From an uncultured Azospirillaceae bacterium (GTDB lineage: Bacteria; Pseudomonadota; Alphaproteobacteria; Rickettsiales; UBA3002), in NCBI GenBank assembly GCA_964352815.1, contig CAYGTO010000003.1:133015-197014 (forward strand): 64,000 nucleotides of DNA, in the 5' to 3' direction. Of this stretch, positions 12,604-64,000 are shown in pieces. Within the stretch, counting starts at the first letter, position 1. The number at the start of each line of letters is the position of its first letter. A model generated the notes under the pieces. The model saw only the letters and a list, made by a program, of their open reading frames with translations. It made no database searches and was not told the origin of the DNA. A program made the position numbers and the translations under genes.

Positions 12604-13525
12604 TGTCCAATCGTGCCATGCGCACGAGTTCTTTCACCAATGTCGCAAAATCCATTCCGTCATGCGCAGCAATTTCTGGCGTCAGCGAGAGCGGCGTCAT
12701 GCCAGGCTGCGTGTTGGTTTCGAGAAGATAGAATATACCATGGTTTTCATCATAACGGAAGTCACTACGCGTGACACCGCGGCAACCCAGCGCCCGATGC
12801 GCCCGCTCCGCCAATTGCAACACCTCCCCATACGCATTCGCATCAATCGGCGCCGGCATGATATGCTCTGCCTTACCATCAGTGTATTTTGCTTCATAAT
12901 CGTAGAACCCTTGCTTCGGACGAATCTCAATCGCACCGAGCGCTTTTGCGCCCTCACCCTCGCCCAGCACCGCGACCTGAACCTCACGGCCAGGGATGTA
13001 TTTCTCAACCAACACCTGATCACCAAAGGGCCAATCTGCTTCGCCAAATGCATAATCCGCATCATCATGAATAATACTGACGCCAACGCTCGAGCCTTCA
13101 TTGAGCGGCTTAATCACAAAGGGCCGCGCCATCGGCTCACCCTGAAGCATTGCCGTTTTGCTACACACACTGCCCGCAGCACATTGCAGCCCCTCCGCCT
13201 CGAACACTTTCTTCGCCATCGGCTTATCCATCGCAAGCGCCGAGGCAAGCACCCCTGAATGGGTGTAGGGAATTGCGAGCATTTCCAGCACCCCTTGAAC
13301 CGTGCCATCTTCGCCGTAACGCCCATGCAGCGCGTTGAACACCACATCTGGCTTAGCTTGCGTCAACTGCGCCGCCACATCCTGCTTTGCATCGATCAGG
13401 CTCACCTTATAGCCCAGCGATTCAAGGGCTGCCGCCACCGCCTTCCCGCTCATCAGTGACACCTCACGTTCGGCCGACAGGCCGCCATACAATACTGCTA
13501 CATGTAAATCTGTTGTCATATCCAC
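12590..13525 (-). CDS. ddl: D-alanine--D-alanine ligase
   Basis: ATP-grasp protein with ALHGRYGEDGTVQG and LETNTQPGMT motifs. Confidence 0.95.
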   Translation of the reverse strand: MDMTTDLHVAVLYGGLSAEREVSLMSGKAVAAALESLGYKVSLIDAKQDVAAQLTQAKPDVVFNALHGRYGEDGTVQGVLEMLAIPYTHSGVLASALAMDKPMAKKVFEAEGLQCAAGSVCSKTAMLQGEPMARPFVIKPLNEGSSVGVSIIHDDADYAFGEADWPFGDQVLVEKYIPGREVQVAVLGEGEGAKALGAIEIRPKQGFYDYEAKYTDGKAEHIMPAPIDANAYGEVLQLAERAHRALGCRGVTRSDFRYDENHGIFYLLETNTQPGMTPLSLTPEIAAHDGMDFATLVKELVRMARLDNDHG

Positions 13526-13664
13526 CTACCTTATACAGATAGTACAGAAACGCGAGGGTGTGACGGAGATTTCTAAGAGAGGGTTTTTCGAGCACCGCAG
13601 CGTACATAAGTACGTGAGGATGAGAGAAAAAACATCGACACAGAAATCGCCCGCACGCTAGCGT

Positions 13665-14687
13665 TTATGAGCTATCTGGCTTACCGATGCGCTGAATCTC
13701 CCATTGGAGCTCCACCCCGAAGTGATCCTTGACCCGGCGGCGCATCTCTTCCCCAAGCGCTTCCAGGTCGCGTGCTGTCGCTGTGCCGGTGTTAATCATG
13801 AAGTTGCAATGCTTCTCCGACATCTGCGCACCTTCTAATTCTAAACCTCGGCCGCCCACCGCGTCAATCATTTGCCACGCTTTGTGCCCCTCGGGATTCT
13901 TAAAGGTGCTGCCCCCCGTCCGCTCGCGCACTGGCTGGGTCGCCTCGCGCGCCTGTTTTATCTCACGAATTCGCTGATGTATCTCTTCTGGCTCACCTTT
14001 CTCAACGCGGAAAATGGCCTTAGTAAACACCCAATCGTTCGGCGCGGTCGAATGGCGGTAGCTATAGCCCAGCTCATCGACGCTGACCCGTTTAGTCTCT
14101 CCCTCGCCGGTGACCAGTTCAGCCGCAATCAGCACATCACTCATCTCCGTGCCATACGCACCCGCATTCATCCGAAGCGCGCCGCCAATCGTGCCCGGAA
14201 TGCCGCTCAAAAATTCGAGGCCAGCAATGCCATGATCGGCGGCGTAGAGGGCGACATTGGCATCCAGGCAACCCGCGCCAACAAACAAAGACTCGTCACT
14301 CTGCGAGGAGGCGCCAGCCTCCGCGGCAGTCCATTCTCGCATCACATCGCTAGAATGGATCGCGTCGCTTCGCTCGCGAAATGCTTCACTCTGAAACCTG
14401 AACCCCGAATCCTGAACCCTGAGCTCCGTAAACCCCCGCCCGAGCTTGATGACCACCCCGTCGATCCCACCATCGCGCACGATCACGTTCGAGCCCACGC
14501 CCAGCACCGTCACCGGCAGGTCTGCGGGCTTCTGCCTCATAAAGTAAGCAAGGTCTTCCGCATTTTCCGGTTTAAAGAGCAACTCCGCTGGGCCACCCAC
14601 CCGAAACCAGTTGGTCTTCGCCAGGTCAGCGTTCTCGCGCAGCTTGCCACGGAGATCAGGCATTATGCTTGTTAGTTCATATTTCAT
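13665..14687 (-). CDS. murB: UDP-N-acetylenolpyruvoylglucosamine reductase, carrying a repeat-derived in-frame insertion
   Basis: GVGSN, GIPGTIGGALRMNAGAYG and GSTFKNP motifs. About 45 extra residues (RVQDSGFRFQSEAFRERSDAIHSSDVMREWTAAEAGASSQSDE) lie between GRGFTEL and LFVGAG. Confidence 0.9.
   Translation of the reverse strand: MKYELTSIMPDLRGKLRENADLAKTNWFRVGGPAELLFKPENAEDLAYFMRQKPADLPVTVLGVGSNVIVRDGGIDGVVIKLGRGFTELRVQDSGFRFQSEAFRERSDAIHSSDVMREWTAAEAGASSQSDESLFVGAGCLDANVALYAADHGIAGLEFLSGIPGTIGGALRMNAGAYGTEMSDVLIAAELVTGEGETKRVSVDELGYSYRHSTAPNDWVFTKAIFRVEKGEPEEIHQRIREIKQAREATQPVRERTGGSTFKNPEGHKAWQMIDAVGGRGLELEGAQMSEKHCNFMINTGTATARDLEALGEEMRRRVKDHFGVELQWEIQRIGKPDSS
14300..14384. repeat. nested-palindrome element, TTCGCGAG subfamily, inside murB
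   Basis: The minus-strand reading gcatTTCGCGAGcgaagcgacGCGATCCATTC...GAATGGactgccgcg...cgcctcCTCGCAGA is colinear with the glyS copy at 63442-63570. Confidence 0.7.
14389..14436. repeat. tandem heptamer array (TGAAACC family) inside murB
   Basis: tctgaaa cctgaac cccgaat cctgaac cctgagc tccgtaa. It encodes the QDSGFRFQS stretch on the minus strand. Confidence 0.7.
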
Positions 14688-14757
14688 ATGTTCTCTTGAC
14701 TACAATCGCCAGTTCCAGATAACAAGTTGATTATGTTAACAAGAGCGGAGTGTAACC

Positions 14758-15186
14758 ATGAGAAGACCCGAATGGACCAAGCCTTGGGCATGTAGGCAAG
14801 ATACCAAGGGGGGATCATGCAGTTTGCGCCATTTTCCCATTCGCGAGGCAAAAGAAGGGGATCACCCTCATGGGGGAATTCCGGGAAACTATGTTGTTGT
14901 TGAGATGGTATTTGATGATCCAGATAAGGAGCGTCTAAAGCCAGGGATTGAATCAATGCTCAATGCATATCGGGGTAATGATGGTCAGCTTTTTACCATT
15001 TTTCAGAAAGATGGTCCACCTACGAGAATGGATGTGATGGTTATGAAGCATTTTCTTTTAGAGTCTGGCTGGACAGAAACAGATATTGCAGAGGCGACAA
15101 ACCGTTATCCTGAAGCGCTAGGAGTTAACGAAAGATGGGTAGATACAGTTACTCGTGGCCAGGAAACAGCAAATATGGCTCTTTAG
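14758..15186 (+). CDS. hypothetical protein (orphan, opposite strand, inside the dcw cluster)
   Basis: 142-aa ORF filling the 0.5-kb murB-murC gap. GGAG lies 8 nt upstream of the ATG. The region looks AT-richer than its flanks. No motif recognised. Confidence 0.5.
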
Positions 15187-16679
15187 GCGCTAGCGCTGTT
15201 ATGCTGGCCGATCAGTTTCTCCAGCTCTCCTGGCAGTGCGTTTGCCCATTTCGAGATGGAGCCGGCGCCGAGGCATATGACATAATCATTCGGCTGCGCA
15301 ATCTGGTGAATCGTCTCGGCGAGCTTCGTTTCAGATTCCAGCAGTGAGACTTGCTGATGGCCATGTGAGCGGATACCCTCGGCCAGCGACTCCTGACTGA
15401 TGCCCTCAATCGGCGATTCGCCCGCTTCATAAATATCAGTGACCACCACATGATCCGCATCATTAAAACAGGTGCAGAATTCTTCAAACAAATCGCGCAC
15501 GCGGCTGTAGCGGTGCGGCTGCACCACCGCAATCACGCGACTGTCTTTCTGGTCAGCGAGTCGGCGCGCTGAGGAGAGTGTCGCCGCAATTTCGACCGGG
15601 TGATGGCCATAATCATCGATAATCGTCACCCCATTCACCTTCCCCGTCTTGGTAAAGCGCCGCTTCACCCCTTGGAAATCGTTGAAGCCTTTGATAATCG
15701 CTGCCACTTCCATGTTCAGCTCATAACAGACCGACAGGGCCGCGAGTGCGTTGCGCAAATTATGATCGCCCTGCATCGGCAGGAACACGCCCTCAATCAC
15801 TCGAACCTCGTCGCTCTGCTGATCGGTGATTTCGACATCAAAGCGCTGGCCCTCGCCTTGCGGCTCAATATTCACCACGCGCACCATCGCTTGTGGCGAG
15901 AACCCGTAGGTGACAATCCGCCGGTCCGAAATTTTCGCCACCAACGCCTGTACTTCCGGATGATCGATACACAACACGCCGAAGCCATAGAATGGAAGGT
16001 TCTCAAGGAACTGACGGAACGCCGCACGCAGATTATCGAAGCTGCCATAATGATCGAGATGTTCCGGGTCGATATTCGTCACCACCGCAATGGTCGAGGG
16101 GATTTTGATAAAGGTGCCATCCGATTCATCGGCCTCAACAATCATCCACTCACCTTTGCCGAGCCGCGTGTTCGTCCCATATGCATTAATGATTCCCCCA
16201 TTAATAACGGTCGGGTTTCGACTCGCCGCTTCAAACAGACTGGCGAGCATCGAGGTTGTCGTGGTTTTGCCATGCGTTCCCGCAATGGAGATGGTCATTT
16301 TCAAGCGCATTAATTCGCCAAGCATTTCACTACGCCGCACCACTGGGATGCGCATGCGCCGTGCTTCGACCATTTCTGGATTTCCATCTTTGACTGCTGA
16401 AGAAATCACCACCACCGCGGCTTTCTCAACATTCTCAGGCATATGGCCAATCGCCACCTCAATGCCAAGGCCGCGCAGACGTTCGACATTCGGCCCTTCG
16501 GCAATGTCACTGCCCTGCACATGATAATTTAGATTATGGAGCAGCTCGGCAATACCGCTCATGCCAATACCACCAATGCCGACGAAATGGATGATGCCAA
16601 TATCGAGTGACATGGTTTTGCCAACCGGAAAAGGGCGAATCGGGATCGTCTTCCCGTCAGGGTTCACTGCCGGCGTCAT
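15183..16679 (-). CDS. murC: UDP-N-acetylmuramate--L-alanine ligase
   Basis: [12 protein letters not shown] and [12 protein letters not shown] motifs. There is an ATGA overlap with the murG stop. Alternative start at 16613 ([10 protein letters not shown]). Confidence 0.93.
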
Positions 16680-28395: not shown

Positions 28396-28469
28396 TATCA
28401 ACACACTAGCTGTGGATAAGGCTGGGGATGAGGATGTGGAGATTAGGATCTAGGTATCTGAAGTATAAA

Positions 28470-28540
28470 GGTTTTAGTTTTCAGGTTGTAGGTTACAGCA
28501 TGGCTATTTCTGAAACCTGCAACCTAACACCTACAACCTA
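28470..28540. repeat. inverted heptamer arrays (GGTTTCA/TGAAACC family) forming a hairpin at the rnpB 3' end
   Basis: The left arm is ggtttta gttttca ggttgta ggttaca. A 13-nt loop follows. The right arm is tgaaacc tgcaacc taacacc tacaacc. On the minus strand the hairpin is followed by TTTAT. Confidence 0.75.
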
Positions 28541-28544
28541 TCCA

Positions 28545-29042
28545 ACGAAGAGGGCCGATAAGCCGGGTTCTGTCACTGGCATTGCCAGGGATGGCCATTC
28601 ATCTAGGCCGCTTGTTGCCAAACGGCTCATGCACCCTACCCGAGATGCTGGTGCGAAACTCACTTGCGGCGATTACCTTTGCACTACCAAAAGCGTTCGG
28701 ACACGGCCGCGCGCATCTCCTATTTGGGCTTGCTCCAGACAAGGTTTACCATGCCGCCTGTGTTACCAAAGGCGCGGTGGGCTCTTACCCCACCCTTTCA
28801 CCGTTGCTTTGCATATGCTCCCCGCTTCGGTCGTCTGACCTACGCGATGGAGCGCCGCTCAGGGCTGGCCTTGCTGCTGCAAGGAATATTGCCCCGAAAC
28901 TACATACAAAGCAGTCTACTTTCTGTGGCACTGTCTCTCGGATCACTCCGGGCGGGGGTTACCCGCTGCCTTGTTTCGTGGAGCCCGGACTTTCCTCCCC
29001 CTATCGCGAGCGATAGAGAGCGACCATCTGGCCCTCTTCGGA
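28545..29042 (-). ncRNA. rnpB: RNase P RNA (bacterial type A)
   Basis: The reverse complement contains GGAGGAAAGTCCGGGCTCCA, GGTGAAAGGGTGGGGTAAGAGCCCACCGC, GGTAAAC, GAGCAAGCCCAAATAGG, CCTAGATGAATGG and ACAGAACCCGGCTTATCGGCC. The P1 helix is formed by GAAGAGGGCC/GGCCCTCTTC at the two ends. Confidence 0.93.
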
Positions 29043-43153: not shown

Positions 43154-43984
43154 CTACCTAAACTCAAACAGCGCTCGGAAAATCCCATGCCAGGTGTTTA
43201 CTTCCTGCGTGCTAAGGTCCGCTCTCAATAAAGAAGTGCGGATATTGCGCCACATGGCAGACTTTTTCTCGGGCACGCTCCAGAAATTCGCCTGATCAAG
43301 CATGGGTTCAAGCTGGTCAAACAGCGCCTGTAGCTCACCGTGGGTTGCATTTACACCGTCATCCTGAGAGAGCGCAGCGACCGAAGGATCTTCTATCCTG
43401 TGGCGCGATAGATCCTTCGCCGGCGGCTCAGGATGACGAAGATTAGCCTCCCGAATCCCGAATTCTTGCCTAAACCACTCATAACACACAATATTAACTG
43501 CTTGACCAAGATTCAGGGACGGATAGTCCGGATTCGCCGGAATCGGCAGAATCGCCTGCGCCAGCGTGACATGTTCATTGGTCAGGCCCGTGCGTTCTGG
43601 GCCGAAAAGAATGGCTACACTGTCATCCCGCGATTTAATCGCGGGATCTCTACTTGCATCCAGAGATCCCCTGGTCAAGCCACGGGATGACAACATTTCA
43701 CTAATATCCGCCTCCGGCTTATGCATCTCTCGGTCGCGCGCCGTGGTGGCCAGTACATAGTCACAGTCCGCTATGGCCGCTTCTAACGTGTCATAGAGCT
43801 GCGCCGCCTCAATCAGGTGCTTTGCCCCCGCCGACAGGCTCAGCGCCCGCTCATTGGGCCAGCCATCGCGCGGATTGACAATTCTAAGCTCCGACACGGC
43901 GAAATTATGCATTGCCCGCGCCGCCGCACCAATATTCTCGCCCATTTGCGGCTCAACGAGGATGATTTTCGGAGATTGTTGCAT
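43154..43984 (-). CDS. SpoU/TrmH-family RNA 2'-O-methyltransferase (TrmJ/LasT-like) with two repeat-derived insertions
   Basis: ILVEPQMGENIGAAARAM, ILFGPERTGL and SLNLGQAV motifs. The extra segments LSSRGLTRGSLDASRDPAIKSRDDS and HPEPPAKDLSRHRIEDPSVAALSQDDG coincide with the two repeat copies. Confidence 0.85.
   Translation of the reverse strand: MQQSPKIILVEPQMGENIGAAARAMHNFAVSELRIVNPRDGWPNERALSLSAGAKHLIEAAQLYDTLEAAIADCDYVLATTARDREMHKPEADISEMLSSRGLTRGSLDASRDPAIKSRDDSVAILFGPERTGLTNEHVTLAQAILPIPANPDYPSLNLGQAVNIVCYEWFRQEFGIREANLRHPEPPAKDLSRHRIEDPSVAALSQDDGVNATHGELQALFDQLEPMLDQANFWSVPEKKSAMWRNIRTSLLRADLSTQEVNTWHGIFRALFEFR
43358..43437. repeat. nested-palindrome element (GTCATCCTGAG subfamily) inside the methyltransferase CDS
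   Basis: 80 bp, identical at 75 of 80 positions to 45121-45200, in the same orientation. Confidence 0.9.
43622..43691. repeat. nested-palindrome element (GTCATCCCGCG variant) inside the methyltransferase CDS
   Basis: GTCATCCCGCG-atttaat-CGCGGGATCTCT-acttgcatcc-AGAGATCCC-ctggtcaagcca-CGGGATGAC. Confidence 0.85.
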
Positions 43985-44053
43985 TGCACCACTACAGTTC
44001 ATTGTTTTTTAATGATTTTTCATTATTGTTATATGGTCTAAAAGGAAAATGCA

Positions 44054-44836
44054 ATGCCACGTAGAAAGAACACTGTAAACGTCAAAATACTCGCTTTGGT
44101 CGACACGCTGGATTTACTGCTATCATTAAAAGAAGCAGATCTGCCTGAGGGTGAAACTGATTTATTCCCTGGTCTTGTAGGCCTTCCTGTCTACAAATCC
44201 GCTGATTATCAGTCACAAATCAAACAGTTAAATCTTGCTATGAAATCACTTGCTGACACAATGGGTAAACAACCAATATCTTTTGGCAAATCGGAACGTG
44301 ATCATGATAGGGAAGCTGGCGGCCTGTATGTACTTCATGTTTCTATTCCCGAACCACCTCATGAATATTTAGATATATTACGTACATTTCTAGAAACTCA
44401 TAAAACTAAGCATGGCATTCCAGAAGGCTTCATCGATTACCGCCATACCCCCCAGATGCCTGTGGATTTGTTGATTGCGTGTTTAGCTGAAGTTAGAGAA
44501 AACTCGGCCCCTGAAGATACATCTGCAACATTAGAAACACCAATAAACAACGGGTTACATGCCGCTGCGCTTTCTAAACTCCTCAACGCAGCCAAAGCCA
44601 GCGCTTACGGCGATACGCATGAAATACTATTTAAACCTGCATATACAGGAGTCGAAGTAACCTCATCAGGCATAGGACTGCACGAAGCGATTGATAAGCT
44701 GACATCAAACTTAAAACAGCCAGAGAGAAAGAAGGCGTTTGCTAATCACATCCAACAACCCGATTTCGCGCGGGCAGCTCAAAGCGTTTACGCTGCTTAC
44801 GTAGCGCCAATTGCGCGTTCACATGGGTATGTTTAG
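44054..44836 (+). CDS. hypothetical protein (orphan)
   Basis: 260-aa ORF, AT-richer than neighbours by eye; no motif recognised. Confidence 0.5.
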   Translation: MPRRKNTVNVKILALVDTLDLLLSLKEADLPEGETDLFPGLVGLPVYKSADYQSQIKQLNLAMKSLADTMGKQPISFGKSERDHDREAGGLYVLHVSIPEPPHEYLDILRTFLETHKTKHGIPEGFIDYRHTPQMPVDLLIACLAEVRENSAPEDTSATLETPINNGLHAAALSKLLNAAKASAYGDTHEILFKPAYTGVEVTSSGIGLHEAIDKLTSNLKQPERKKAFANHIQQPDFARAAQSVYAAYVAPIARSHGYV

Positions 44837-46512
44837 CCAAGCAACCCGTAGGTAAGCGCGTCTTTGAGCGCCTCATAGGACGCATCGATAATGTTGTGCG
44901 ACACACCGATCGTGGTCCAGCTTTGACCCTTCTCATTCGTGCTTTCGATCATCACACGGGTCAGCGCGGCCGTTGCATCTTTCGGCGTTAGAATTCGCAC
45001 TTTGTAGTCACTCAGATGCATTTTCTTGAGCTTTGGATAGGTCGGCATTAGCGCGGCACGCAGCGCGGCATCGAGTGCATTGACCGGGCCATTACCCTCG
45101 CCTGCTGTCAGGCAGGTACCGTCATCCTGAGAGAGCGCAGCGAGCGAAGGATCTTCCATCCTGTGACACGATAGATCCTTCGCCTGCGGCTCAGGATGAC
45201 GGTTTGTTTTTTTGGATTTTGTAGCAACCGTCAGCTTCACCGTCGCCTCCGACACCGTCACCTTTCTGCCCTTCGCATTAAATCGCCGCTCATCAGTAAC
45301 ACGGAAATGCTCCAGCTCAAAAAATTCGGGCACCAGCCCCAGCTTCCGGCGCACGAGCAGCTCAAAACTCGCATCGGCATCTTCATAGGCATAGCCAAGT
45401 TTCTCGCGCTCCTTGATCAGCTTGACCAAATCATCCAGCTTCGGGTTCTCTTTCTCTTTGCCAAGCCCCATCGCTTCGAGGCGGGTGATGATGTTTGACT
45501 TACCCGCCTTATCGGACACCAGAATCTGGCGCTGATTGCCGACTTGCGCCGGATCAATATGCTCATAGCTCTTCGTGCTTTTCGCCATCGCCGAGACATG
45601 CAAGCCGCCCTTATGCGCAAAGGCCGCGCTACCAACATAGGGCAAATGGCTATTCGGAATCCGGTTCAGCCGCTCATCGACCAGGCGCGACAACTTTACC
45701 AGCTGCTGAAGTTTTTTCTCAGACGCGCCGGTTTTATAGCCCAGCTTCAGCATCAGATTTGGAATGATCGAAATCAAATTCGCATTGCCGCAGCGCTCGC
45801 CAATCCCGTTGATCGTGCCTTGCACCTGGCGCACGCCCGCTTCCACCGCCGCGATTGAATTCGCCACGGCCTGTTCGGTGTCGTTATGGCAATGAATGCC
45901 CAAATGATCGCCCGGAATATGCTGCGTAATTTGCGTTACAATCTCGCTGATCTCATGCGGCAGCGTGCCGCCATTCGTATCACACAGCACCACCCAGCGC
46001 GCGCCGGCCTCATACGCGGCTTTCAGGCAATCAAGCGTGTAGTCTGAGTTCGCCTTGAACCCGTCGAAACAGTGTTCCGCATCAAACAAAACTTCGCGCT
46101 TTTTCGACACCGCATGGGCGATACTGTCGGAAATCATTTTCACATTCTCTTTTTGTGAGACGCCCAATGCGTTCTCGACCTGCCAATCCCAGCTTTTGCC
46201 GACGATGCATAACGCGCCCGGATGCGCATCGAGCAGCGCGTTCAGCCCCGGATCATTCGCCGCGCTACGGCCATTGCGCCGCGTCATGCCAAAGGCAGTG
46301 ACCTTCGCTTTTTTAAGCTTCGGCTGTTCCGCAAAAAATTGATCATCTGTCGGGTTCGCGCCCGGCCATCCGCCTTCAATATAATCAATGCCGAACTCAT
46401 CGAGCGCCTTCGCAATCGCGATTTTATCAGACACGGTGAAATCAACCCCACGCGCCTGCGCGCCATCGCGCAGGGTGGAATCATAGAGAGTAATGCGGTC
46501 TTGTTTAGTCAT
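44833..46512 (-). CDS. cimA: citramalate synthase-type LeuA-family enzyme with a repeat-derived insertion
   Basis: LYDSTLRDGAQ entry, HCHND metal motif and a C-terminal LeuA-dimer domain. Start placed at MTKQDR (46512). The extra segment RHPEPQAKDLSCHRMEDPSLAALSQDDG coincides with the repeat. Confidence 0.8.
   Translation of the reverse strand: MTKQDRITLYDSTLRDGAQARGVDFTVSDKIAIAKALDEFGIDYIEGGWPGANPTDDQFFAEQPKLKKAKVTAFGMTRRNGRSAANDPGLNALLDAHPGALCIVGKSWDWQVENALGVSQKENVKMISDSIAHAVSKKREVLFDAEHCFDGFKANSDYTLDCLKAAYEAGARWVVLCDTNGGTLPHEISEIVTQITQHIPGDHLGIHCHNDTEQAVANSIAAVEAGVRQVQGTINGIGERCGNANLISIIPNLMLKLGYKTGASEKKLQQLVKLSRLVDERLNRIPNSHLPYVGSAAFAHKGGLHVSAMAKSTKSYEHIDPAQVGNQRQILVSDKAGKSNIITRLEAMGLGKEKENPKLDDLVKLIKEREKLGYAYEDADASFELLVRRKLGLVPEFFELEHFRVTDERRFNAKGRKVTVSEATVKLTVATKSKKTNRHPEPQAKDLSCHRMEDPSLAALSQDDGTCLTAGEGNGPVNALDAALRAALMPTYPKLKKMHLSDYKVRILTPKDATAALTRVMIESTNEKGQSWTTIGVSHNIIDASYEALKDALTYGLLG
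45121..45200. repeat. nested-palindrome element (GTCATCCTGAG subfamily) inside cimA
   Basis: 80 bp, identical at 75 of 80 positions to 43358-43437. Confidence 0.9.
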
Positions 46513-46621
46513 GACGAGCATTAGGCGAGATTTTTGCAAAAAAATCAAGAATCGTCACAATTCTGAAACAATCCTATGTTATTAAGCCCAAATATTAAGA
46601 ATATAAGGAAGGACAAATAAG

Positions 46622-53336: not shown

Positions 53337-53412
53337 ACGTTTCGCGAAGGAGCGAAGCGACTGACGCGATCCAGGGCGTGACTCTGGATTGCTTCGCTAC
53401 GCTCGCAAAGCG
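53337..53412. repeat. nested-palindrome element, degenerate TTCGCGA subfamily, etfB-etfA spacer
   Basis: acgTTTCGCGAAG-gagcgaagcgactgac-GCGATCCAG-ggcgtgact-CTGGATTGC-ttcgctacg-CTCGCAAAGCGt. Confidence 0.65.
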
Positions 53413-60250: not shown

Positions 60251-61210
60251 ATGTCGAAAAGTACATCCAAAACCCCCTTCGCATTCCAGGATATCATCCT
60301 GACACTTCAGCATTTTTGGGCGGAGCAGGGGTGCGTGATTTTGCAGCCCTACGACATGGAAGTGGGCGCCGGGACGTTCCACCCCGCGACGACGCTACGC
60401 GCGCTCGGACCGGAGCATTGGAACGCGGCCTATGTTCAGCCTTGCCGCCGCCCATCCGATGGCCGTTACGGTGAAAACCCCAACCGGCTGGGCCATTATT
60501 ATCAGTTTCAGGTCATTCTGAAGCCCTCACCCGACAACATCCAGCAGCTTTATCTCGACTCGATCGCCGCGCTCGGCATCGATCCGCTCAAACATGATAT
60601 TCGTTTCGTGGAAGATGACTGGGAATCCCCTACTCTTGGCGCGTGGGGGCTGGGCTGGGAAGTCTGGTGCGACGGCATGGAAGTGACGCAATTCACCTAT
60701 TTTCAGCAAGTGGGCGGCATTGAGTGCAAGCCCGTCTCCGGCGAGCTAACCTACGGGCTGGAGCGGCTGGCGATGTATATTCAGGGCGTTGAGAATGTGT
60801 ATGACCTGGTATGGAATCAGGTGCCTGGTGCCAGGGGCCAGGGGTCAGGAAGTCATCCTGAAACCCGAAACCTGAAACCTGTAACCTATGGCGATGTGTT
60901 CCTACGCAATGAACGCGAGCAAACCGCCTATAGCCTAGAGCATGCAAACACCGACATATTGCTGCAACATTTTAAAGATGCCGAAGCCGAATGCGCGCAG
61001 CTTCTTGAAAAGAAACTTGCTTTGCCTGCCTATGATCACTGCATCAAAGCCTCGCATCTGTTCAACCTGCTCGATGCGCGTGGGGTGATTTCGGTGACCG
61101 AACGTGCGGCATATATTGGCCGCGTCCGCGCCTTAGCCAAAGGCTGCTGTGAAGAATATGTGAGGGGTCAGGTTTCAGGTTTCGGGTTTCAGGAAAAAGA
61201 GGCTTCATGA
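60251..61210 (+). CDS. glyQ: glycine--tRNA ligase alpha subunit, with an internal and a C-terminal repeat-derived segment
   Basis: [17 protein letters not shown] entry, colinear with E. coli GlyQ. The extra [22 protein letters not shown] lies before YGDVF. The C-terminus [14 protein letters not shown] is encoded by the heptamer array. Confidence 0.92.
60820..60886. repeat. inverted heptamer arrays inside glyQ
   Basis: The left arm is ggtgcct ggtgcca ggggcca ggggtca. The loop is aagtcat. The right arm is cctgaaa cccgaaa cctgaaa cctgtaa. Confidence 0.8.
61164..61193. repeat. heptamer array, left arm flanking the four-helix-bundle gene
   Basis: ggggtca ggtttca ggtttcg ggtttca gg. This is the inverted complement of 61570-61600. 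Confidence 0.8.
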
Positions 61211-61587
61211 TTCGTTCTTATCAGGATTTAGAGGTGTGGAAGAAATCCTTGAGGCTGGTTAAAGACGTGTATGGCTGCACAAGACTTTACCCAAAATCCG
61301 AACTCTATGGCCTTGTAAGCCAGACACAACGAGCCGCTGTATCGGTGCCAGCCAATATTGCTGAAGGCCGCACGCGTTATTCCAAAAAAGATTTTGTTTC
61401 TCATTTGAAGATTGCTTCTGGCTCTTTAGCCGAGCTTGAAACGCATCTTTTCATTGCCACTGAACTCGGCTATATCACGATAGAACAGCGAGACGCTTTG
61501 TTAAATACATCCGCCGAGATAGGCCGGATGCTCAATGGCCTGGTGAATTCGTTGAAAAGCGAAAAACAACTGGAACCCGAAACCTGA
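61207..61587 (+). CDS. four-helix-bundle protein (23S rRNA intervening-sequence protein / Avd-like family)
   Basis: LEVWKKS..L.....Y.....[44 protein letters not shown] matches the family signature. There is an ATGA overlap with the glyQ stop. Confidence 0.88.
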
Positions 61588-61600
61588 CACCTGAAACCTA
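61570..61600. repeat. heptamer array, right arm flanking the four-helix-bundle gene
   Basis: ctggaac ccgaaac ctgacac ctgaaac cta. It encodes the last residues (LEPET) of the four-helix-bundle ORF. Confidence 0.8.
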
Positions 61601-61602
61601 TT

Positions 61603-61932
61603 ATGCAACGACTCATGCTCAAATCCAAGCTCCACCGCGCGAAAGTGACCGATTCAGACCTCAACTATGAAGGCTCAATCGGCATTGATCGCGACTGGAT
61701 GGATGAAGTCGGGCTACTCCCTTACGAGCAAGTCGATGTGGCGAGTATTGCGAATGGCGCGCGCTTCACCACCTATGTCATCGAAGAAGAACGCGGATCA
61801 GAGAAAATCGTCATCAATGGCGCCGCTGCGCATCTCGTGAATATTGGCGACTTGGTCATCATCATGGGTTATTGCGTGATGAGCGATGGTGATGCGCAGC
61901 AAGCAACACCGAAGATTAAGCGATTGGAGTAA
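61603..61932 (+). CDS. panD: aspartate 1-decarboxylase
   Basis: LKSKLHRAKVT entry and the self-processing site YEGSIGID; 109 aa. Confidence 0.93.
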   Translation: MQRLMLKSKLHRAKVTDSDLNYEGSIGIDRDWMDEVGLLPYEQVDVASIANGARFTTYVIEEERGSEKIVINGAAAHLVNIGDLVIIMGYCVMSDGDAQQATPKIKRLE

Positions 61933-61957
61933 GGAAACATCACTAGCGGAGGAAAGG

Positions 61958-62584
61958 ATGTCAACAAGGAGAGAATATAATAGAAAAGAGCTGTTCAAGA
62001 TAGGGGAAGACGGAAAGCCCGTCCATGTAAGCGATATTTTGTCATGGCTACGCAGCGAAAAAACCACGGATAGTGATATCGCATCACTTACGCGTGGGGA
62101 AATTTCGGCTATTTTGGGAACGGAGCACATTAATGTGAATCGATATGCTGCAAAGCTGGCTGCAGAAAAAGAGTTTCAACTTTTACAAGACTGTAGAGAA
62201 GAAAGAGGAAAGACCAGAATGAAAATGATTACCACAACTGATAACGAGGGTAGGATTGTCGACGCGATGTCAGTCTTTGAATCGCTTGAAGAGGGAGACA
62301 GAGCACTTGCGCGCGAAAGCATGGCTGTTTCACATAATAAAAGATTAAGCCAAGAGCTAGACCGCTTAAAAGATGCTGGCGGTGACCTTTTTAGGCAATG
62401 TTCTGCTATCATGATAAAAGATGCTAACAAAGCCCTCAAATTAGCGCATAAGATACAAGAATTCATGCATCATGATCTTGGTATTGCGTATACTGCCGTT
62501 GATACGCTTGTGGACTCGATTCAGTCGAAAGGCCCTTTAAAAGCGCTAGACCCTAGAGAGAAACGATCACCGCGAGCCGCCTAA
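61958..62584 (+). CDS. hypothetical protein (orphan)
   Basis: GGAGGAAAGG lies upstream of ATG 61958. TAATG overlap with the glyS start. AT-richer by eye; no motif recognised. Confidence 0.5.
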   Translation: MSTRREYNRKELFKIGEDGKPVHVSDILSWLRSEKTTDSDIASLTRGEISAILGTEHINVNRYAAKLAAEKEFQLLQDCREERGKTRMKMITTTDNEGRIVDAMSVFESLEEGDRALARESMAVSHNKRLSQELDRLKDAGGDLFRQCSAIMIKDANKALKLAHKIQEFMHHDLGIAYTAVDTLVDSIQSKGPLKALDPREKRSPRAA

Positions 62585-64000
62585 TGCCCACCCTTCTATT
62601 CGAATGTTTCTCCGAAGAAATGCCCGCACGGATGCAAGCGCCGGCGGAAGCGCAGCTGCATGAGCGGTTTGAAAAAGCGCTTAAAGATTCACGGCTCGAA
62701 CATGGCACGGTGAAAACCTTTGTCAGTCCACGCCACCTTGGCATTCGCATTGAAGGCCTGCCCGCGCAGCAACCAGACATCACGATCGAGCGCAAAGGGC
62801 CCAAAGTCGGTGCGCCAGAACAGGCGATGCAGGGCTTTTTGAAATCCACGGGCCTGAGCGTGGATGAGCTTGAACAGCGCGACACAGGAAAAGGCACTTT
62901 TTATTTCGCCGTCAAAGAGGAACAAGGCAAACCGACTCGCGAGGCGCTGAAACCGATCATCGAACAGGTGATGCATGAGTTTAGCTGGCCAAAATCGATG
63001 CGCTGGGGCGCCTATGAATGTAGCTGGGTGCGCCCGCTACATCGCCTCGTTGCACTACTCGATGATCAGGTTATTCCCGCGCAATTCCACCATATCACCG
63101 CGAGCAATATCACTTTTGGTCATCGGTTTCTTGCCCCGGAAGCCATCACGCTTACCCATGCAGATGACTATGAAGCCGCCCTCGAAAAAGCCTATGTGCA
63201 GGTTGATCGCGCAACACGCCAATCGCGCATGATGGAGCAAAGTGAGGCATTGCTGTCGCAGAAAAAACTCGCACTGATAGAGGATCGTGGGCTGCTCGAT
63301 GAAGTGACCGGCCTCGTCGAATGGCCGCACCCAAAATGCGGCACGATTGACGAAACCTTCATGCGGCTGCCGAAAGAAGTGTTGGTGTCGGAAATGCGCG
63401 AGCACCAAAAATATTTTGCTACAACGGAATCAGAAAACCACACTTCGCGAGAGAGCGCAGCGACCGACGCGATCCATTCACATACGCAAGAATGGGCTGC
63501 CGCGTCTGCCTGCGCGAAGCCGGAGCTTCGCTTCGGCGAAGACAGGTCGGCTAACGCCTCCTCGCAGAACGGGATATCCCCTCACTACCTCATTATCGCT
63601 AACGTCCCCGGCGATGCAGGTGCGATTGAGCATGGGAATAACCGCGTACTACGCGCACGTCTGTCTGATGGTGCTTTCTATTGGGACAGTGACCGCGCCG
63701 TACCGCTCAGCGAATGGGCAGAAAAACTTGCATCCGTCATCTTCCATGCGAAGCTAGGTACCACTGCACAAAAGGTGCAGCGCATCCGCGATTTGTCCGG
63801 CCATCTCGCTTTGTTTGTTCCCCACGCAAATCTTGAGCATGTGGCGCGCGGAGCCGAGCTTTGCAAAGCGGATCTGGTCACCGGCATGGTCGGCGAGTTC
63901 CCCGATTTGCAGGGCATTATGGGCCAATATTACGCGCAAGAACAAAAGGAAGTCGACGAGGTCGCACGCGGCATCTATGAACATTATCTCCCGCAAGGCG
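62584..64000 (+). CDS. glyS: glycine--tRNA ligase beta subunit (3' end beyond window), with a repeat-derived insertion
   Basis: Absent from the ORF track because it has no stop in the window. Own translation of frame 1 gives MPTLLFECFSEEMPARMQ..., FVSPRHLG, REHQKYF, GNNRVLRARLSDGAFYW and HAKLGT. The frame is open to 64000. Confidence 0.9.
   Translation, partial: MPTLLFECFSEEMPARMQAPAEAQLHERFEKALKDSRLEHGTVKTFVSPRHLGIRIEGLPAQQPDITIERKGPKVGAPEQAMQGFLKSTGLSVDELEQRDTGKGTFYFAVKEEQGKPTREALKPIIEQVMHEFSWPKSMRWGAYECSWVRPLHRLVALLDDQVIPAQFHHITASNITFGHRFLAPEAITLTHADDYEAALEKAYVQVDRATRQSRMMEQSEALLSQKKLALIEDRGLLDEVTGLVEWPHPKCGTIDETFMRLPKEVLVSEMREHQKYFATTESENHTSRESAATDAIHSHTQEWAAASACAKPELRFGEDRSANASSQNGISPHYLIIANVPGDAGAIEHGNNRVLRARLSDGAFYWDSDRAVPLSEWAEKLASVIFHAKLGTTAQKVQRIRDLSGHLALFVPHANLEHVARGAELCKADLVTGMVGEFPDLQGIMGQYYAQEQKEVDEVARGIYEHYLPQG
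63442..63570. repeat. nested-palindrome element (TTCGCGAG subfamily, 129 bp) inside glyS
   Basis: acTTCGCGAGagagcgcagcgaccgacGCGATCCATTCacatacgcaaGAATGGgctgccgcg...cgcctcCTCGCAGAac. It shares 19 nt (gagagagcgcagcgaccga) with the 43358 copy and its overall layout with the murB copy. Confidence 0.75.

What the first reader, a model, noticed from the sequence alone, without database searches (positions are those of the whole stretch)
14296..14436. Composite repeat insertion (palindromic element plus heptamer array) inside essential murB
MurB has ~45 extra residues between the conserved GRGFTEL and LFVGAG segments. The DNA there consists of a TTCGCGAG-subfamily element (14300-14384) abutting six tandem heptamers (14389-14436). 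The encoded peptide ...SEAFRERSDAIHSSDVMREWTAAEAGASSQ... shares the residue pattern R-E-(S)..DAIHS...EW(A/T)AA...ASSQ with the insertion in GlyS. An essential cell-wall enzyme carrying two stacked repeat types in frame is unusual. It also shows that the two repeat families co-localise.
Basis: partly seen in the sequence, partly recalled or inferred. Interest (0 to 1): 0.7.

Follow-up and report, generated by a model that had tools for sequence, protein, structure and literature searches.

The report
Stacked selfish repeats inside murB
The cell-wall gene murB of an uncultured alphaproteobacterium carries 38 extra codons made of two kinds of repeated DNA sitting in a disordered surface loop; the phenomenon is known from Rickettsia, but the 7-base repeats prove to be the end pieces of a gene cassette found across many bacterial phyla.

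Summary
Confirmed, with corrections. murB (13665-14687, minus strand) has a 114-nt, 38-codon in-frame insertion, not about 45 residues. It consists of about 4 imperfect heptamers, not six, followed by an 81-nt palindrome (TTCGCGAG...CTCGCAGA). The palindrome has copies in glyS and in the etfB-etfA spacer. None of 119 MurB homologues has this segment. It sits in a beta-hairpin turn and is predicted disordered, while the enzyme core is intact.

It is not exceptional in this lineage. Of 19 internal insertions among the 120 nearest MurBs, 17 lie in the same turn. The four I read as DNA are other palindromes or a heptamer hairpin. In this window glyQ, glyS, leuA and a trmJ-like gene also carry in-frame repeats.

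The heptamers are not plain microsatellites. In the window they form inverted arms around a PF05635 (23S-rRNA-IVS / Avd-like) gene. Seventy of 81 loci with such a gene, from 15 or more phyla, have period-7 arrays at the gene ends.

Best reading: nested selfish insertions tolerated in a permissive loop. This works like Rickettsia palindromic elements, with a solo arm of an IVS-like cassette added. It is a new variant of a known kind. The general cassette architecture is the more interesting lead.

The parts
13665..14687 (-). murB CDS (UDP-N-acetylmuramate dehydrogenase), 340 aa, intact
   Evidence: ORF. NCBIfam NF010480 scores 386.8 bits against a cut-off of 259. All family-invariant residues are present. 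The AlphaFold core has pLDDT above 90. Foldseek TM-score normalised to the target is 0.85-0.93 against solved MurB structures.
14299..14412 (-). whole in-frame insertion, 114 nt = 38 codons (QDSGFRFQSEAFRERSDAIHSSDVMREWTAAEAGASSQ)
   Evidence: Absent from 119 homologues. Falls in the gap of the 9dtk alignment. pLDDT is 42-69 between strands E89-92 and E132-137. Only 2 of its 6 frames are free of stop codons.
14389..14422 (-). heptamer arm; G-rich on the coding strand (GGGTTCA GGATTCG GGGTTCA GGTTTCA G); its outer end overlaps the native R-V codons
   Evidence: TRF period 7, 4.6 copies. 75% identical to the reference arm of repeat family D1. One of 6 arms in the window, against 0 in shuffles. 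No second arm anywhere in murB.
14300..14380 (-). palindromic element, TTCGCGAG...CTCGCAGA subfamily
   Evidence: Aligned with the glyS and etf-spacer copies. Blastn hits within the window. RNA fold -39 kcal/mol, z = -1.97.
14386..14393 (-). 8-bp direct repeat CAGAGTGA, left copy (possible target-site duplication)
   Evidence: Exact repeat with 90-nt spacing. Deleting one copy plus the palindrome leaves ELRVQDSGFRFQSDESLF in frame. Background: 150 of 64000 positions have an exact 8-mer repeated 60-130 nt downstream.
14296..14303 (-). 8-bp direct repeat CAGAGTGA, right copy; overlaps the palindrome terminus
63444..63568 (+). same palindromic subfamily, in frame in glyS, with a further nested hairpin insertion
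   Evidence: (family D4). The Pfam tRNA_synt_2f match is split into two stretches at this point.
53341..53409 (+). same palindromic subfamily, intergenic between etfA and etfB
   Evidence: Fold z = -3.39.
60818..60889 (+). heptamer hairpin without an ORF (two inverted arms), in frame in glyQ; the segment reads [20 protein letters not shown], about 15 residues longer than the solved orthologue 7qcf at this point
   Evidence: The extra residues show as a gap in the alignment to 7qcf GlyQ.
61163..61194 (+). left heptamer arm of the PF05635 cassette; also encodes the C-terminus of GlyQ
   Evidence: (I3, I4)
61207..61587 (+). PF05635 / TIGR02436 four-helix-bundle ('23S rRNA intervening sequence protein', Avd-like) gene; its start overlaps the glyQ stop (ATGA)
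   Evidence: Pfam E = 5.7e-38. NCBIfam TIGR02436 and NF008911.
61570..61601 (+). right heptamer arm of the cassette, inverted relative to the left arm (87% complementary over 30 nt)
   Evidence: (I4)
28465..28541 (.). heptamer hairpin (two inverted arms) abutting the 3' end of the RNase P RNA gene
43355..43463 (-). second composite: ATTCGGG x2 heptamers plus a GTCATCCTGAG-type palindrome, in frame in a TrmJ-family methyltransferase
   Evidence: (D2)
43621..43692 (-). another GTCATCC-type palindrome, in frame in the same TrmJ-family gene
   Evidence: (I6)
45118..45201 (-). GTCATCCTGAG-type palindrome in frame in leuA, read in the same frame as the trmJ copy (RHPEPxAKDLS.HR.EDPS.AALSQDDG)
   Evidence: (D2)

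Best explanation
The extra 114 nt in murB are two nested pieces of selfish repeated DNA. They landed in, and are tolerated by, a solvent-exposed beta-hairpin turn of the FAD-binding domain.

Inferred step 1: a G-rich heptamer arm was inserted. It is the same kind of arm that flanks the PF05635 four-helix-bundle gene 47 kb away and forms ORF-less hairpins in glyQ and beside the RNase P RNA gene. This left ...ELRV-QDSGFRFQ-SDES...

Inferred step 2: an 81-nt palindromic element of the TTCGCGAG subfamily inserted at the inner end of that arm, possibly duplicating the 8-bp target CAGAGTGA. It belongs to a larger GTCATCC / AGCGAC-GATC superfamily with about 10 copies in this window.

Both additions are multiples of three and free of stop codons in the frame used. 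Only 2 of the 6 frames are open. In an essential gene, selection removes every other insertion. The insert is translated as a disordered loop and MurB keeps working.

Shown here: the repeat identity of both parts, their absence from homologues, the location in the fold, and recurrence of insertions at this loop. Inferred: the order of events, the transposition mechanism, and that the protein is active.
For: Not ancestral. The segment is absent from 119 homologues, and the nearest (64% identity) has no insert.

Repeat nature. The palindrome has copies in glyS and in the etf spacer. The heptamer arm matches 5 other arms in the window, against 0 in shuffles.

Tolerance. The MurB core is predicted with confidence and the insert has pLDDT 42-69 between two strands. 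The core matches solved MurBs with target-normalised TM-scores of 0.85-0.93. All invariant residues are kept. The gap in the 9dtk alignment is a 3-residue turn.

Permissive site. Of 19 internal insertions of 8 aa or more in the 120 nearest MurBs, 17 are in this turn. In L001 and L002 the insert is a palindrome with further copies in the same locus. In L086 it is a GTCATCC...GGATGAC palindrome, and in L085 an in-frame heptamer hairpin.

Same behaviour elsewhere in the window: glyQ, glyS, leuA and trmJ, with related copies read in the same frame.

The 8-bp direct repeat with 90-nt spacing supports a two-step history. The identical protein is recorded from two sources, NCBI and Logan.
Against: No close relative is available, so there is no empty-site allele and no direct evidence of insertion rather than loss elsewhere.

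Only one heptamer arm is present, so its origin from a two-armed element is an inference.

The CAGAGTGA repeat overlaps the palindrome terminus, and the glyS, etf, leuA and trmJ copies show no clear duplication. It could be chance, at roughly 1-2% by my estimate.

No transposase or other mobilising enzyme was identified. Only about half of the window's ORFs were scanned against Pfam, so this is not a demonstrated absence.

The palindrome folds only moderately better than shuffles (z = -1.97).

Enzyme activity, translation of the insert and essentiality in this organism are untested.
Confidence: 0.8

Rival explanations
1. The heptamer run is an ordinary microsatellite. It grew in place by polymerase slippage, seeded by the native AGGGTT codons, and has nothing to do with the arms of the PF05635 cassette. 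Its position next to the palindrome is then a coincidence, or the palindrome simply targets simple repeats.
For: Only one arm is present in murB. The units are imperfect, with 80% matches. The outer end overlaps native codons. Heptamer repeats are known to be over-represented in bacteria in general (PMC4692102).
Against: The arm is 75% identical over 32 nt to the cassette arms, not merely periodic. It has the same polarity as cassette left arms, G-rich YAGGNNN on the coding strand with the cargo at the inner end. A second composite with the same order and orientation exists in trmJ. In L085 a complete two-armed heptamer hairpin sits in exactly this MurB loop.
Confidence: 0.2
2. The insert has been co-opted. 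As RNA, the palindrome and arm form a structure that regulates processing or stability of the dcw-operon transcript, for example as an RNase III site. Alternatively, the disordered loop provides a new interaction surface on MurB.
For: The terminal inverted repeats of the Coxiella IVS form a stem that RNase III cleaves (PMC4990558). A heptamer hairpin sits exactly at the 3' end of the RNase P RNA gene. The palindrome has some folding potential.
Against: The composite as a whole does not fold better than shuffles (z = -0.88). There are no promoter-like or terminator-like signals in the insert. No Rfam family matches it. Unrelated sequences occupy the same loop in other lineages, which fits tolerance rather than a specific function. 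No conservation can be measured because there are no relatives.
Confidence: 0.1
3. The segment is an ancestral, lineage-specific MurB loop that only happens to resemble repeats. Alternatively, the gene is a pseudogene or an assembly artefact.
For: No close relatives exist to show an empty site. The source appears to be a metagenome-derived assembly.
Against: The DNA of the loop is repeated in glyS, the etf spacer and five other heptamer arms. The ORF is intact with all invariant residues and a confident fold. The identical protein is recorded from two sources. Independent Logan contigs of the glyQ-glyS region are 100% identical to the window.
Confidence: 0.04

Closest known systems
Rickettsia palindromic elements (RPE; Ogata et al. 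2000 Science; Claverie & Ogata 2003; cited from my own knowledge, mentioned in PMC1779305 and PMC10969869 listed)
   Same: These are dispersed palindromic repeats of about 80-150 bp. They occur in intergenic DNA and also in frame inside housekeeping genes, always in a stop-free frame, at surface positions compatible with the fold. They are found in an alphaproteobacterium.
   Different: The host is not Rickettsia: GC is 52%, and MurB is at most 64% identical to anything in the database. No sequence relationship to RPE-1 to RPE-8 was tested. Here the palindrome is stacked on a heptamer array, which is not, to my knowledge, a feature described for RPEs.
23S rRNA intervening sequences that encode an S23p / PF05635 protein (Leptospira, Coxiella; PMC4990558)
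   Same: A PF05635 ORF is bounded by terminal inverted repeats. In Coxiella, tandem heptamers (GACAGAT) lie just upstream of the ORF and a 28-bp terminal stem is cut by RNase III. The window's cassette at 61163-61601 has the same layout.
   Different: The window's cassette sits between protein-coding genes, not in rRNA. The murB piece is one arm only, has no ORF, and is translated as part of an enzyme.
Heptamer repeats of cyanobacteria (STRR) and Xanthomonas (GGGAATC; PMC4692102)
   Same: These are tandem G-rich heptamers, typically about 4 units long. In Xanthomonas there are 70-75 convergent (inverted) pairs. STRR repeats occur inside the cyanobacterial RNase P RNA gene (Vioque 1997, cited from my own knowledge; the paper that raised this lead was not opened). 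In Nostoc punctiforme a four-helix-bundle gene is flanked by TCAGGAG / CTGACTC arrays.
   Different: Those studies describe the repeats as under-represented in coding regions and not linked to mobile elements or to PF05635 genes. Here the arrays are in frame in essential genes and demonstrably flank PF05635 genes.
MITEs and REP/ERIC/Correia-type small palindromic elements
   Same: They are short, have no ORF of their own, carry terminal inverted repeats, form hairpins, occur in many copies, and are occasionally intragenic.
   Different: No cognate transposase or RAYT gene was seen. A target-site duplication is suggested for only one copy.

Membership tests
Protein-coding palindromic repeats of the RPE kind | Dispersed multi-copy palindromic element of roughly 80-150 bp | tested here: met
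   There are 3 copies of the TTCGCGAG subfamily and at least 7 of the related GTCATCC superfamily in 64 kb. Hairpin folds have z from -1.9 to -3.4.
Protein-coding palindromic repeats of the RPE kind | In-frame, stop-free insertion in otherwise conserved protein genes | tested here: met
   murB, glyS, leuA and trmJ. Related copies are read in the same frame.
Protein-coding palindromic repeats of the RPE kind | Insertion site on the protein surface, compatible with the fold | tested here: met
   The insert is in a beta-hairpin turn with low pLDDT while the core is confident. It falls in a 3-residue turn of 9dtk. The same turn is hit in 17 of 19 cases. This rests on prediction and alignment, not on a solved structure of this protein.
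Protein-coding palindromic repeats of the RPE kind | Sequence homology to an RPE-1 to RPE-8 consensus; Rickettsia host | not tested
   No RPE consensus was available in the tools. The host is clearly not Rickettsia (GC 0.52; MurB relatives). I therefore say it works like an RPE, not that it is a member.
IVS-like PF05635 cassette with inverted heptamer arms | PF05635 / TIGR02436 ORF between the arms | tested here: not met
   The murB insert carries a palindrome, not an ORF. The window's own cassette at 61163-61601 does meet this.
IVS-like PF05635 cassette with inverted heptamer arms | Two arms of tandem heptamers in inverted orientation | tested here: not met
   Only one arm is present in murB. 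Of 81 PF05635 loci, 70 have period-7 arrays at the gene ends and 44 have them on both sides. The inverted match exceeds all 50 shuffles in 65 of 80 loci.
IVS-like PF05635 cassette with inverted heptamer arms | Arm sequence and polarity: G-rich, YAGGNNN-type units on the upstream/coding strand, cargo at the inner end | tested here: met
   The murB units are TCAGGGT, TCAGGAT, TCGGGGT and TCAGGTT, 75% identical to the reference arm. Of 57 upstream consensus units, 30 contain AGG, against 24% expected, and 27 of those 30 are preceded by a pyrimidine.
IVS-like PF05635 cassette with inverted heptamer arms | Location in 23S rRNA helix 25/45 and excision by RNase III | not testable with these tools
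   The window contains no rRNA gene. Cleavage needs an experiment.
MITE | Terminal inverted repeats | tested here: met
   The termini TTCGCGAG and CTCGCAGA are imperfectly complementary. The D2 family has ACCGTCATCCTGAG / CTCAGGATGACGGT.
MITE | Target-site duplication | tested here: inconclusive
   An 8-bp CAGAGTGA repeat flanks the murB copy. No clear duplication was seen by eye at the glyS, etf, leuA or trmJ copies.
MITE | A parent IS or transposase with the same termini | not tested
   None was noticed among the window ORFs that were scanned. The rest of the genome was not available.

The most novel reading that the evidence does not exclude
Inverted arrays of G-rich heptamers (YAGGNNN) together with a PF05635 Avd-like four-helix-bundle gene form one widespread, horizontally moving cassette. 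The classical ORF-bearing 23S rRNA intervening sequences would be only its best-known members. Its ORF-less derivatives (hairpins and solo arms) can settle in frame in essential genes such as murB, murD and glyQ, and serve as landing pads for a second family of palindromic elements. I found no paper in the held library that states this link in general terms.
Probability: 0.35. Interest if true: 0.8.

Novelty: new variant of a known kind. Interest (0 to 1): 0.58.

Why it matters
For MurB itself, the finding marks one beta-hairpin turn as a naturally validated permissive site. Unrelated sequences of 13-43 residues are tolerated there in many lineages, which is useful for protein engineering and for judging odd MurB annotations.

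For genome biology, it extends the Rickettsia phenomenon of selfish DNA inside proteins to another alphaproteobacterial lineage with ordinary GC content. It also shows two repeat families stacking on each other.

The larger point is the lead on the heptamers. What 23S rRNA intervening sequences and their S23p ORFs are, and whether they are mobile, has been open since the early 1990s (discussion in PMC4990558). Finding the same gene with inverted heptamer arms outside rRNA in 15 or more phyla, together with ORF-less versions, gives many independent insertion sites for defining ends and targets. It also suggests direct tests: RNase III cleavage, binding of the pentameric protein to heptamer DNA or RNA, and presence/absence polymorphism.

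Tried and rejected
- **Source genome and empty-site alleles.** An exact look-up of the MurB protein found no contig. A genome-contig scan for the palindrome core GAGCGNAGCGACNGACGCGATCCA found 0 matches, so the source genome is not in that collection and the core is not found in 185,579 species representatives. A metagenome scan for a 27-mer of murB just upstream of the insert also found 0. No insertion-free allele could be obtained.
- **Peptide searches with the 44-aa insert.** A full HMMER scan of 1.84 billion representatives gave one hit (P0241, E = 6.5e-4). This is a spurious ORF made of GSGFRVQ heptamer translations and matches only the heptamer part. The palindrome-encoded peptide has no detectable relative elsewhere.
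- **Rfam.** Nothing but RNase P RNA in the window. An intron, riboswitch or known RNA element at the insert is therefore rejected.
- **Promoter and terminator scan of 13500-15300.** Nothing in the insert.
- **Second heptamer arm in murB, glyS, leuA and trmJ.** None found at a lower threshold.
- **Shared context.** I tested whether IVP cassettes elsewhere share the glyQ/panD context. They do not, apart from one unrelated panD neighbour.
- **Literature.** Searches linking PF05635, S23p or four-helix-bundle genes to heptamer repeats returned only the Coxiella IVS paper.
Full report
**The observation.** murB is an intact 340-aa ORF on the minus strand, 13665-14687. It lies in a dcw cluster with ddl and ftsQ on one side and murC on the other. 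NCBIfam calls it an MurB equivalog at 386.8 bits against a cut-off of 259. I aligned it with the 120 nearest homologues drawn from 5.8 billion proteins. The stretch from DGGI...GRGF to ...GAG is 36 residues in the great majority and 74 here, so 38 residues are extra (QDSGFRFQSEAFRERSDAIHSSDVMREWTAAEAGASSQ). That corresponds to 114 nt at 14299-14412. The nearest homologue is only 64% identical and has no insert, and no homologue has this sequence.

**The palindrome.** Read on the coding strand, the insert ends with an element running from TTCGCGAG (14380-14373) to CTCGCAGA (14307-14300). Two related copies are in the window. One is in glyS (63444-63568), in frame. The other lies between etfA and etfB (53341-53409). 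A three-way alignment shows shared termini and a shared core GACGCGATCCA...GAATGG/TGGA. The glyS copy carries a further nested hairpin. The core GAGCG.AGCGAC.GA.G.GATC is shared with palindromes that end in GTCATCC...GGATGAC (43355, 45118, 41298, 54192, 43621, 35077, 38917). The subfamily therefore belongs to a superfamily with about ten copies in 64 kb. The elements fold as hairpins moderately to clearly better than shuffles: z = -1.97 for murB, -1.90 for glyS and -3.39 for the etf spacer.

**The heptamers.** TRF reports 14391-14422, period 7, 4.6 copies, 80% matches. About four units are inserted.

These are not plain microsatellites. A scan for (CCTGAAA)4-like runs finds six arms in the window and none in ten shuffles. 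The arms share a 32-nt pattern, CTGAAACC.GAAACCTGA.ACCTG.AACCTAT (family D1). Five of the six occur as inverted pairs:
- a hairpin abutting the 3' end of the RNase P RNA gene (28465-28541);
- a hairpin in frame inside glyQ (60818-60889), where the GlyQ sequence is about 15 residues longer than the solved orthologue 7qcf;
- a pair (61163-61194 and 61570-61601, 87% complementary) flanking a 126-aa gene for a PF05635 / TIGR02436 four-helix-bundle protein, the '23S rRNA intervening sequence protein', a relative of DGR Avd.

The left arm of that cassette encodes the C-terminus of GlyQ, and the gene's ATG overlaps the glyQ stop codon. murB has one arm only. Its inner end faces the palindrome, which is where the cassette carries its gene.

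**Is the link between heptamers and PF05635 genes general?** I fetched 80 genome loci encoding relatives of the window protein (44-59% identity). They come from Acidobacteriota, Planctomycetota, Chloroflexota, Desulfobacterota, Nitrospirota, Proteobacteria, Bacteroidota, Gemmatimonadota, Patescibacteria, Cyanobacteria, archaeal MAGs and others.
- TRF finds period-7 arrays within 150 nt of the gene ends in 70 of 81 loci (57 upstream, 57 downstream, 44 on both sides).
- There are 131 such arrays in 29 kb near the genes, against 63 in 180 kb elsewhere. That is roughly 13-fold denser.
- The best inverted match between the upstream and downstream flanks exceeds all 50 shuffles in 65 of 80 loci. A direct-orientation control does so in 13 of 80 (first pass).
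- The unit sequence differs between lineages, but the upstream strand is G-rich (42% G, 13% C). Of 57 consensus units, 30 contain AGG, against 24% expected, and the AGG is nearly always preceded by a pyrimidine. The murB units TCAGGGT, TCAGGAT and TCAGGTT fit this pattern.
- Cultured organisms show the same. In Nostoc punctiforme pNPUN02, gene NPUN_RS35280 has TCAGGAG x4.6 upstream and CTGACTC x3.4 at its 3' end. Calothrix and Nostoc PCC 7120 plasmids have similar arrays. A Gemmatirosa plasmid uses period 8.
- In an all-against-all comparison, most locus pairs share only the gene, with or without the arms (67-77% nucleotide identity across phyla), and have unrelated flanks. This fits horizontal movement of the cassette but does not prove it.

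The held literature has only pieces of this. In the Coxiella 23S rRNA IVS, tandem GACAGAT heptamers precede the S23p ORF, and a 28-bp terminal stem is cut by RNase III (PMC4990558). Xanthomonas has GGGAATC heptamers with 70-75 convergent pairs, described as not associated with mobile elements (PMC4692102). I found no paper stating the general link. Subscription-only literature was not searchable.

**Where the insert sits in the protein.** The Brucella ovis MurB structure 9dtk aligns to residues 8-90 and 131-335 of the query. In the crystal structure the two blocks are only three residues apart. An AlphaFold model built with 57 homologues has mean pLDDT 88.5. The core is above 90. Residues of about 93-130 score 42-69 and lie between strands E89-92 and E132-137. 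The model superposes on solved MurBs with target-normalised TM-scores of 0.85-0.93. All family-invariant residues are present. The insert is therefore a disordered excursion from a beta-hairpin turn of the FAD-binding domain.

**The loop is a recurrent target.** Among the 120 nearest MurBs there are 19 internal insertions of 8 residues or more, and 17 of them sit in this same turn. I read the DNA of four:
- L001 (GCA_964409675.1) and L002 carry GEG...PHPNPLP-type palindromes, with further copies in the same loci.
- L086 (GCA_964469525.1) carries a GTCATCCCGAGCGAAG...CTCAGGATGAC palindrome of the same superfamily as the window's D2 family.
- L085 carries a complete in-frame heptamer hairpin (GTGCTTA x2.9 / ACCAAGC x3.3).

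In L085, murD also holds a heptamer hairpin, plus an inverted pair that brackets about 85 nt of seemingly native coding sequence. So both repeat kinds have entered this loop independently in different lineages. That is what one expects of a permissive site filtered by selection.

**The rest of the window behaves the same way.** In-frame repeats occur in five genes:
- glyQ, a heptamer hairpin;
- glyS, a palindrome;
- leuA, a D2 palindrome read as RHPEPQAKDLSCHRMEDPSLAALSQDDG;
- a TrmJ-family methyltransferase, with two palindromes;
- murB itself.

One of the two trmJ palindromes is preceded, 10 nt away and in the same orientation as in murB, by ATTCGGG x2. With about 7 arrays of about 30 nt in 64 kb, a given palindrome has under 1% chance of such a neighbour (my arithmetic). 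Two cases in about ten elements therefore supports real co-localisation. The elements are stop-free in only some frames: 2 of 6 for the murB composite. This explains why related copies are read in the same frame.

**Likely history and mechanism.** An exact 8-bp direct repeat, CAGAGTGA, lies at 14386-14393 and 14296-14303, 90 nt apart. Removing one copy with the palindrome leaves ELRV-QDSGFRFQ-SDESLF in frame. Only 150 of 64000 positions in the window have an exact 8-mer repeated 60-130 nt downstream. This suggests two steps: a heptamer arm first, then the palindrome inserting at its inner end with a target duplication. The caveat is that the right copy overlaps the palindrome terminus, and the other copies show no clear duplication.

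My best explanation is nested selfish insertions tolerated in a permissive loop (confidence 0.8). I hold the sub-claim that the heptamers are a solo arm of the IVS-like cassette family at about 0.6. The rivals are in-place slippage (0.2), RNA-level or protein-level co-option (0.1), and an ancestral loop or artefact (0.04).

**Comparison with what is known.** The insert works like the Rickettsia palindromic elements: multi-copy palindromes, in-frame insertion, surface location. Those three features were tested and met. Sequence kinship to RPEs was not tested and the host is not Rickettsia, so I do not file it as a member. The heptamer part resembles the arms of S23p-bearing IVSs. As a cassette, however, the murB piece fails two defining features: it has no ORF and only one arm. 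It is a fragment of that kind, not a member.

**Verdict.** It is a new variant of a known kind. Interest is moderate for murB itself. It is raised by the general architecture of heptamer arms around PF05635 genes, which the follow-up uncovered and which deserves its own study.

Noticed in passing
window 61163-61601; loci L003-L082, L087-L091: A PF05635 / TIGR02436 four-helix-bundle gene is flanked by inverted heptamer arrays. The same layout appears in 70 of 81 loci from 15 or more phyla, and in cultured Nostoc and Calothrix plasmids. I found no paper stating this generally.
   Followed up: yes
window 28543-29039 (minus strand): The RNase P RNA gene is 497 nt against a 367-nt model. It has an 85-nt insertion in the P12 loop and a 44-nt insertion in the P15-P17 region. 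The P12 insert contains CCCTGAGCGGCGC...GACGACCGAAGCGGGGA, which resembles the core of the GTCATCCTGAG palindromes. A heptamer hairpin abuts the 3' end of the gene.
   Followed up: partly
window 14758-15186 (plus strand): A 142-aa ORF lies between murB and murC on the opposite strand and interrupts the dcw cluster. It has no Pfam or NCBIfam match. Other lineages also have small unannotated ORFs next to murB (L001, L085).
   Followed up: partly
window 43154-44002 (minus strand): A TrmJ-family RNA methyltransferase carries two in-frame palindromic elements. One is inside the SpoU domain (43621-43692). The other is a heptamer-plus-palindrome composite (43355-43463).
   Followed up: partly
window 45118-45201 in leuA (44833-46548, minus strand): An 84-nt GTCATCCTGAG palindrome, 94% identical to the trmJ copy, is in frame in 2-isopropylmalate synthase, just before the LeuA dimerisation domain.
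   Followed up: partly
L085 760-1520 (ENA ERZ4198739): murD of another alphaproteobacterium holds an in-frame heptamer hairpin (GGTGGAC / CGTCAAC). It also has an inverted pair (CAGTGGT ... CACTGGC) bracketing about 85 nt of apparently native murD coding sequence. Arms can therefore flank host DNA, not only a cargo gene.
   Followed up: no
L091 (Gemmatirosa kalamazoonensis plasmid 1, NZ_CP007129.1:1007186-1008324): The PF05635 homologue here is flanked by period-8 arrays (GAGGGCAG / CTGCCCTC / CTCCTGCC) instead of period-7 arrays.
   Followed up: no
loci L035/L064 and L059/L080/L081; L032: Some pairs of loci share their flanking genes but not the PF05635 cassette between them, which suggests repeated use of one site or fast turnover. 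L032 has two PF05635 genes in tandem.
   Followed up: no
window 61603-61932: panD and a 208-aa ORF with no family match lie between glyQ and glyS, which are usually adjacent. Logan contigs from ERR3534985 and ERR3535001 are 100% identical to the window over 60655-63087.
   Followed up: partly
PMC10910872, figure legend: A survey of CRISPR-associated genes lists '23S rRNA IVP' among the proteins linked to CRISPR arrays. The flanking heptamer arrays may be what array finders pick up. This is speculation and was not checked.
   Followed up: no
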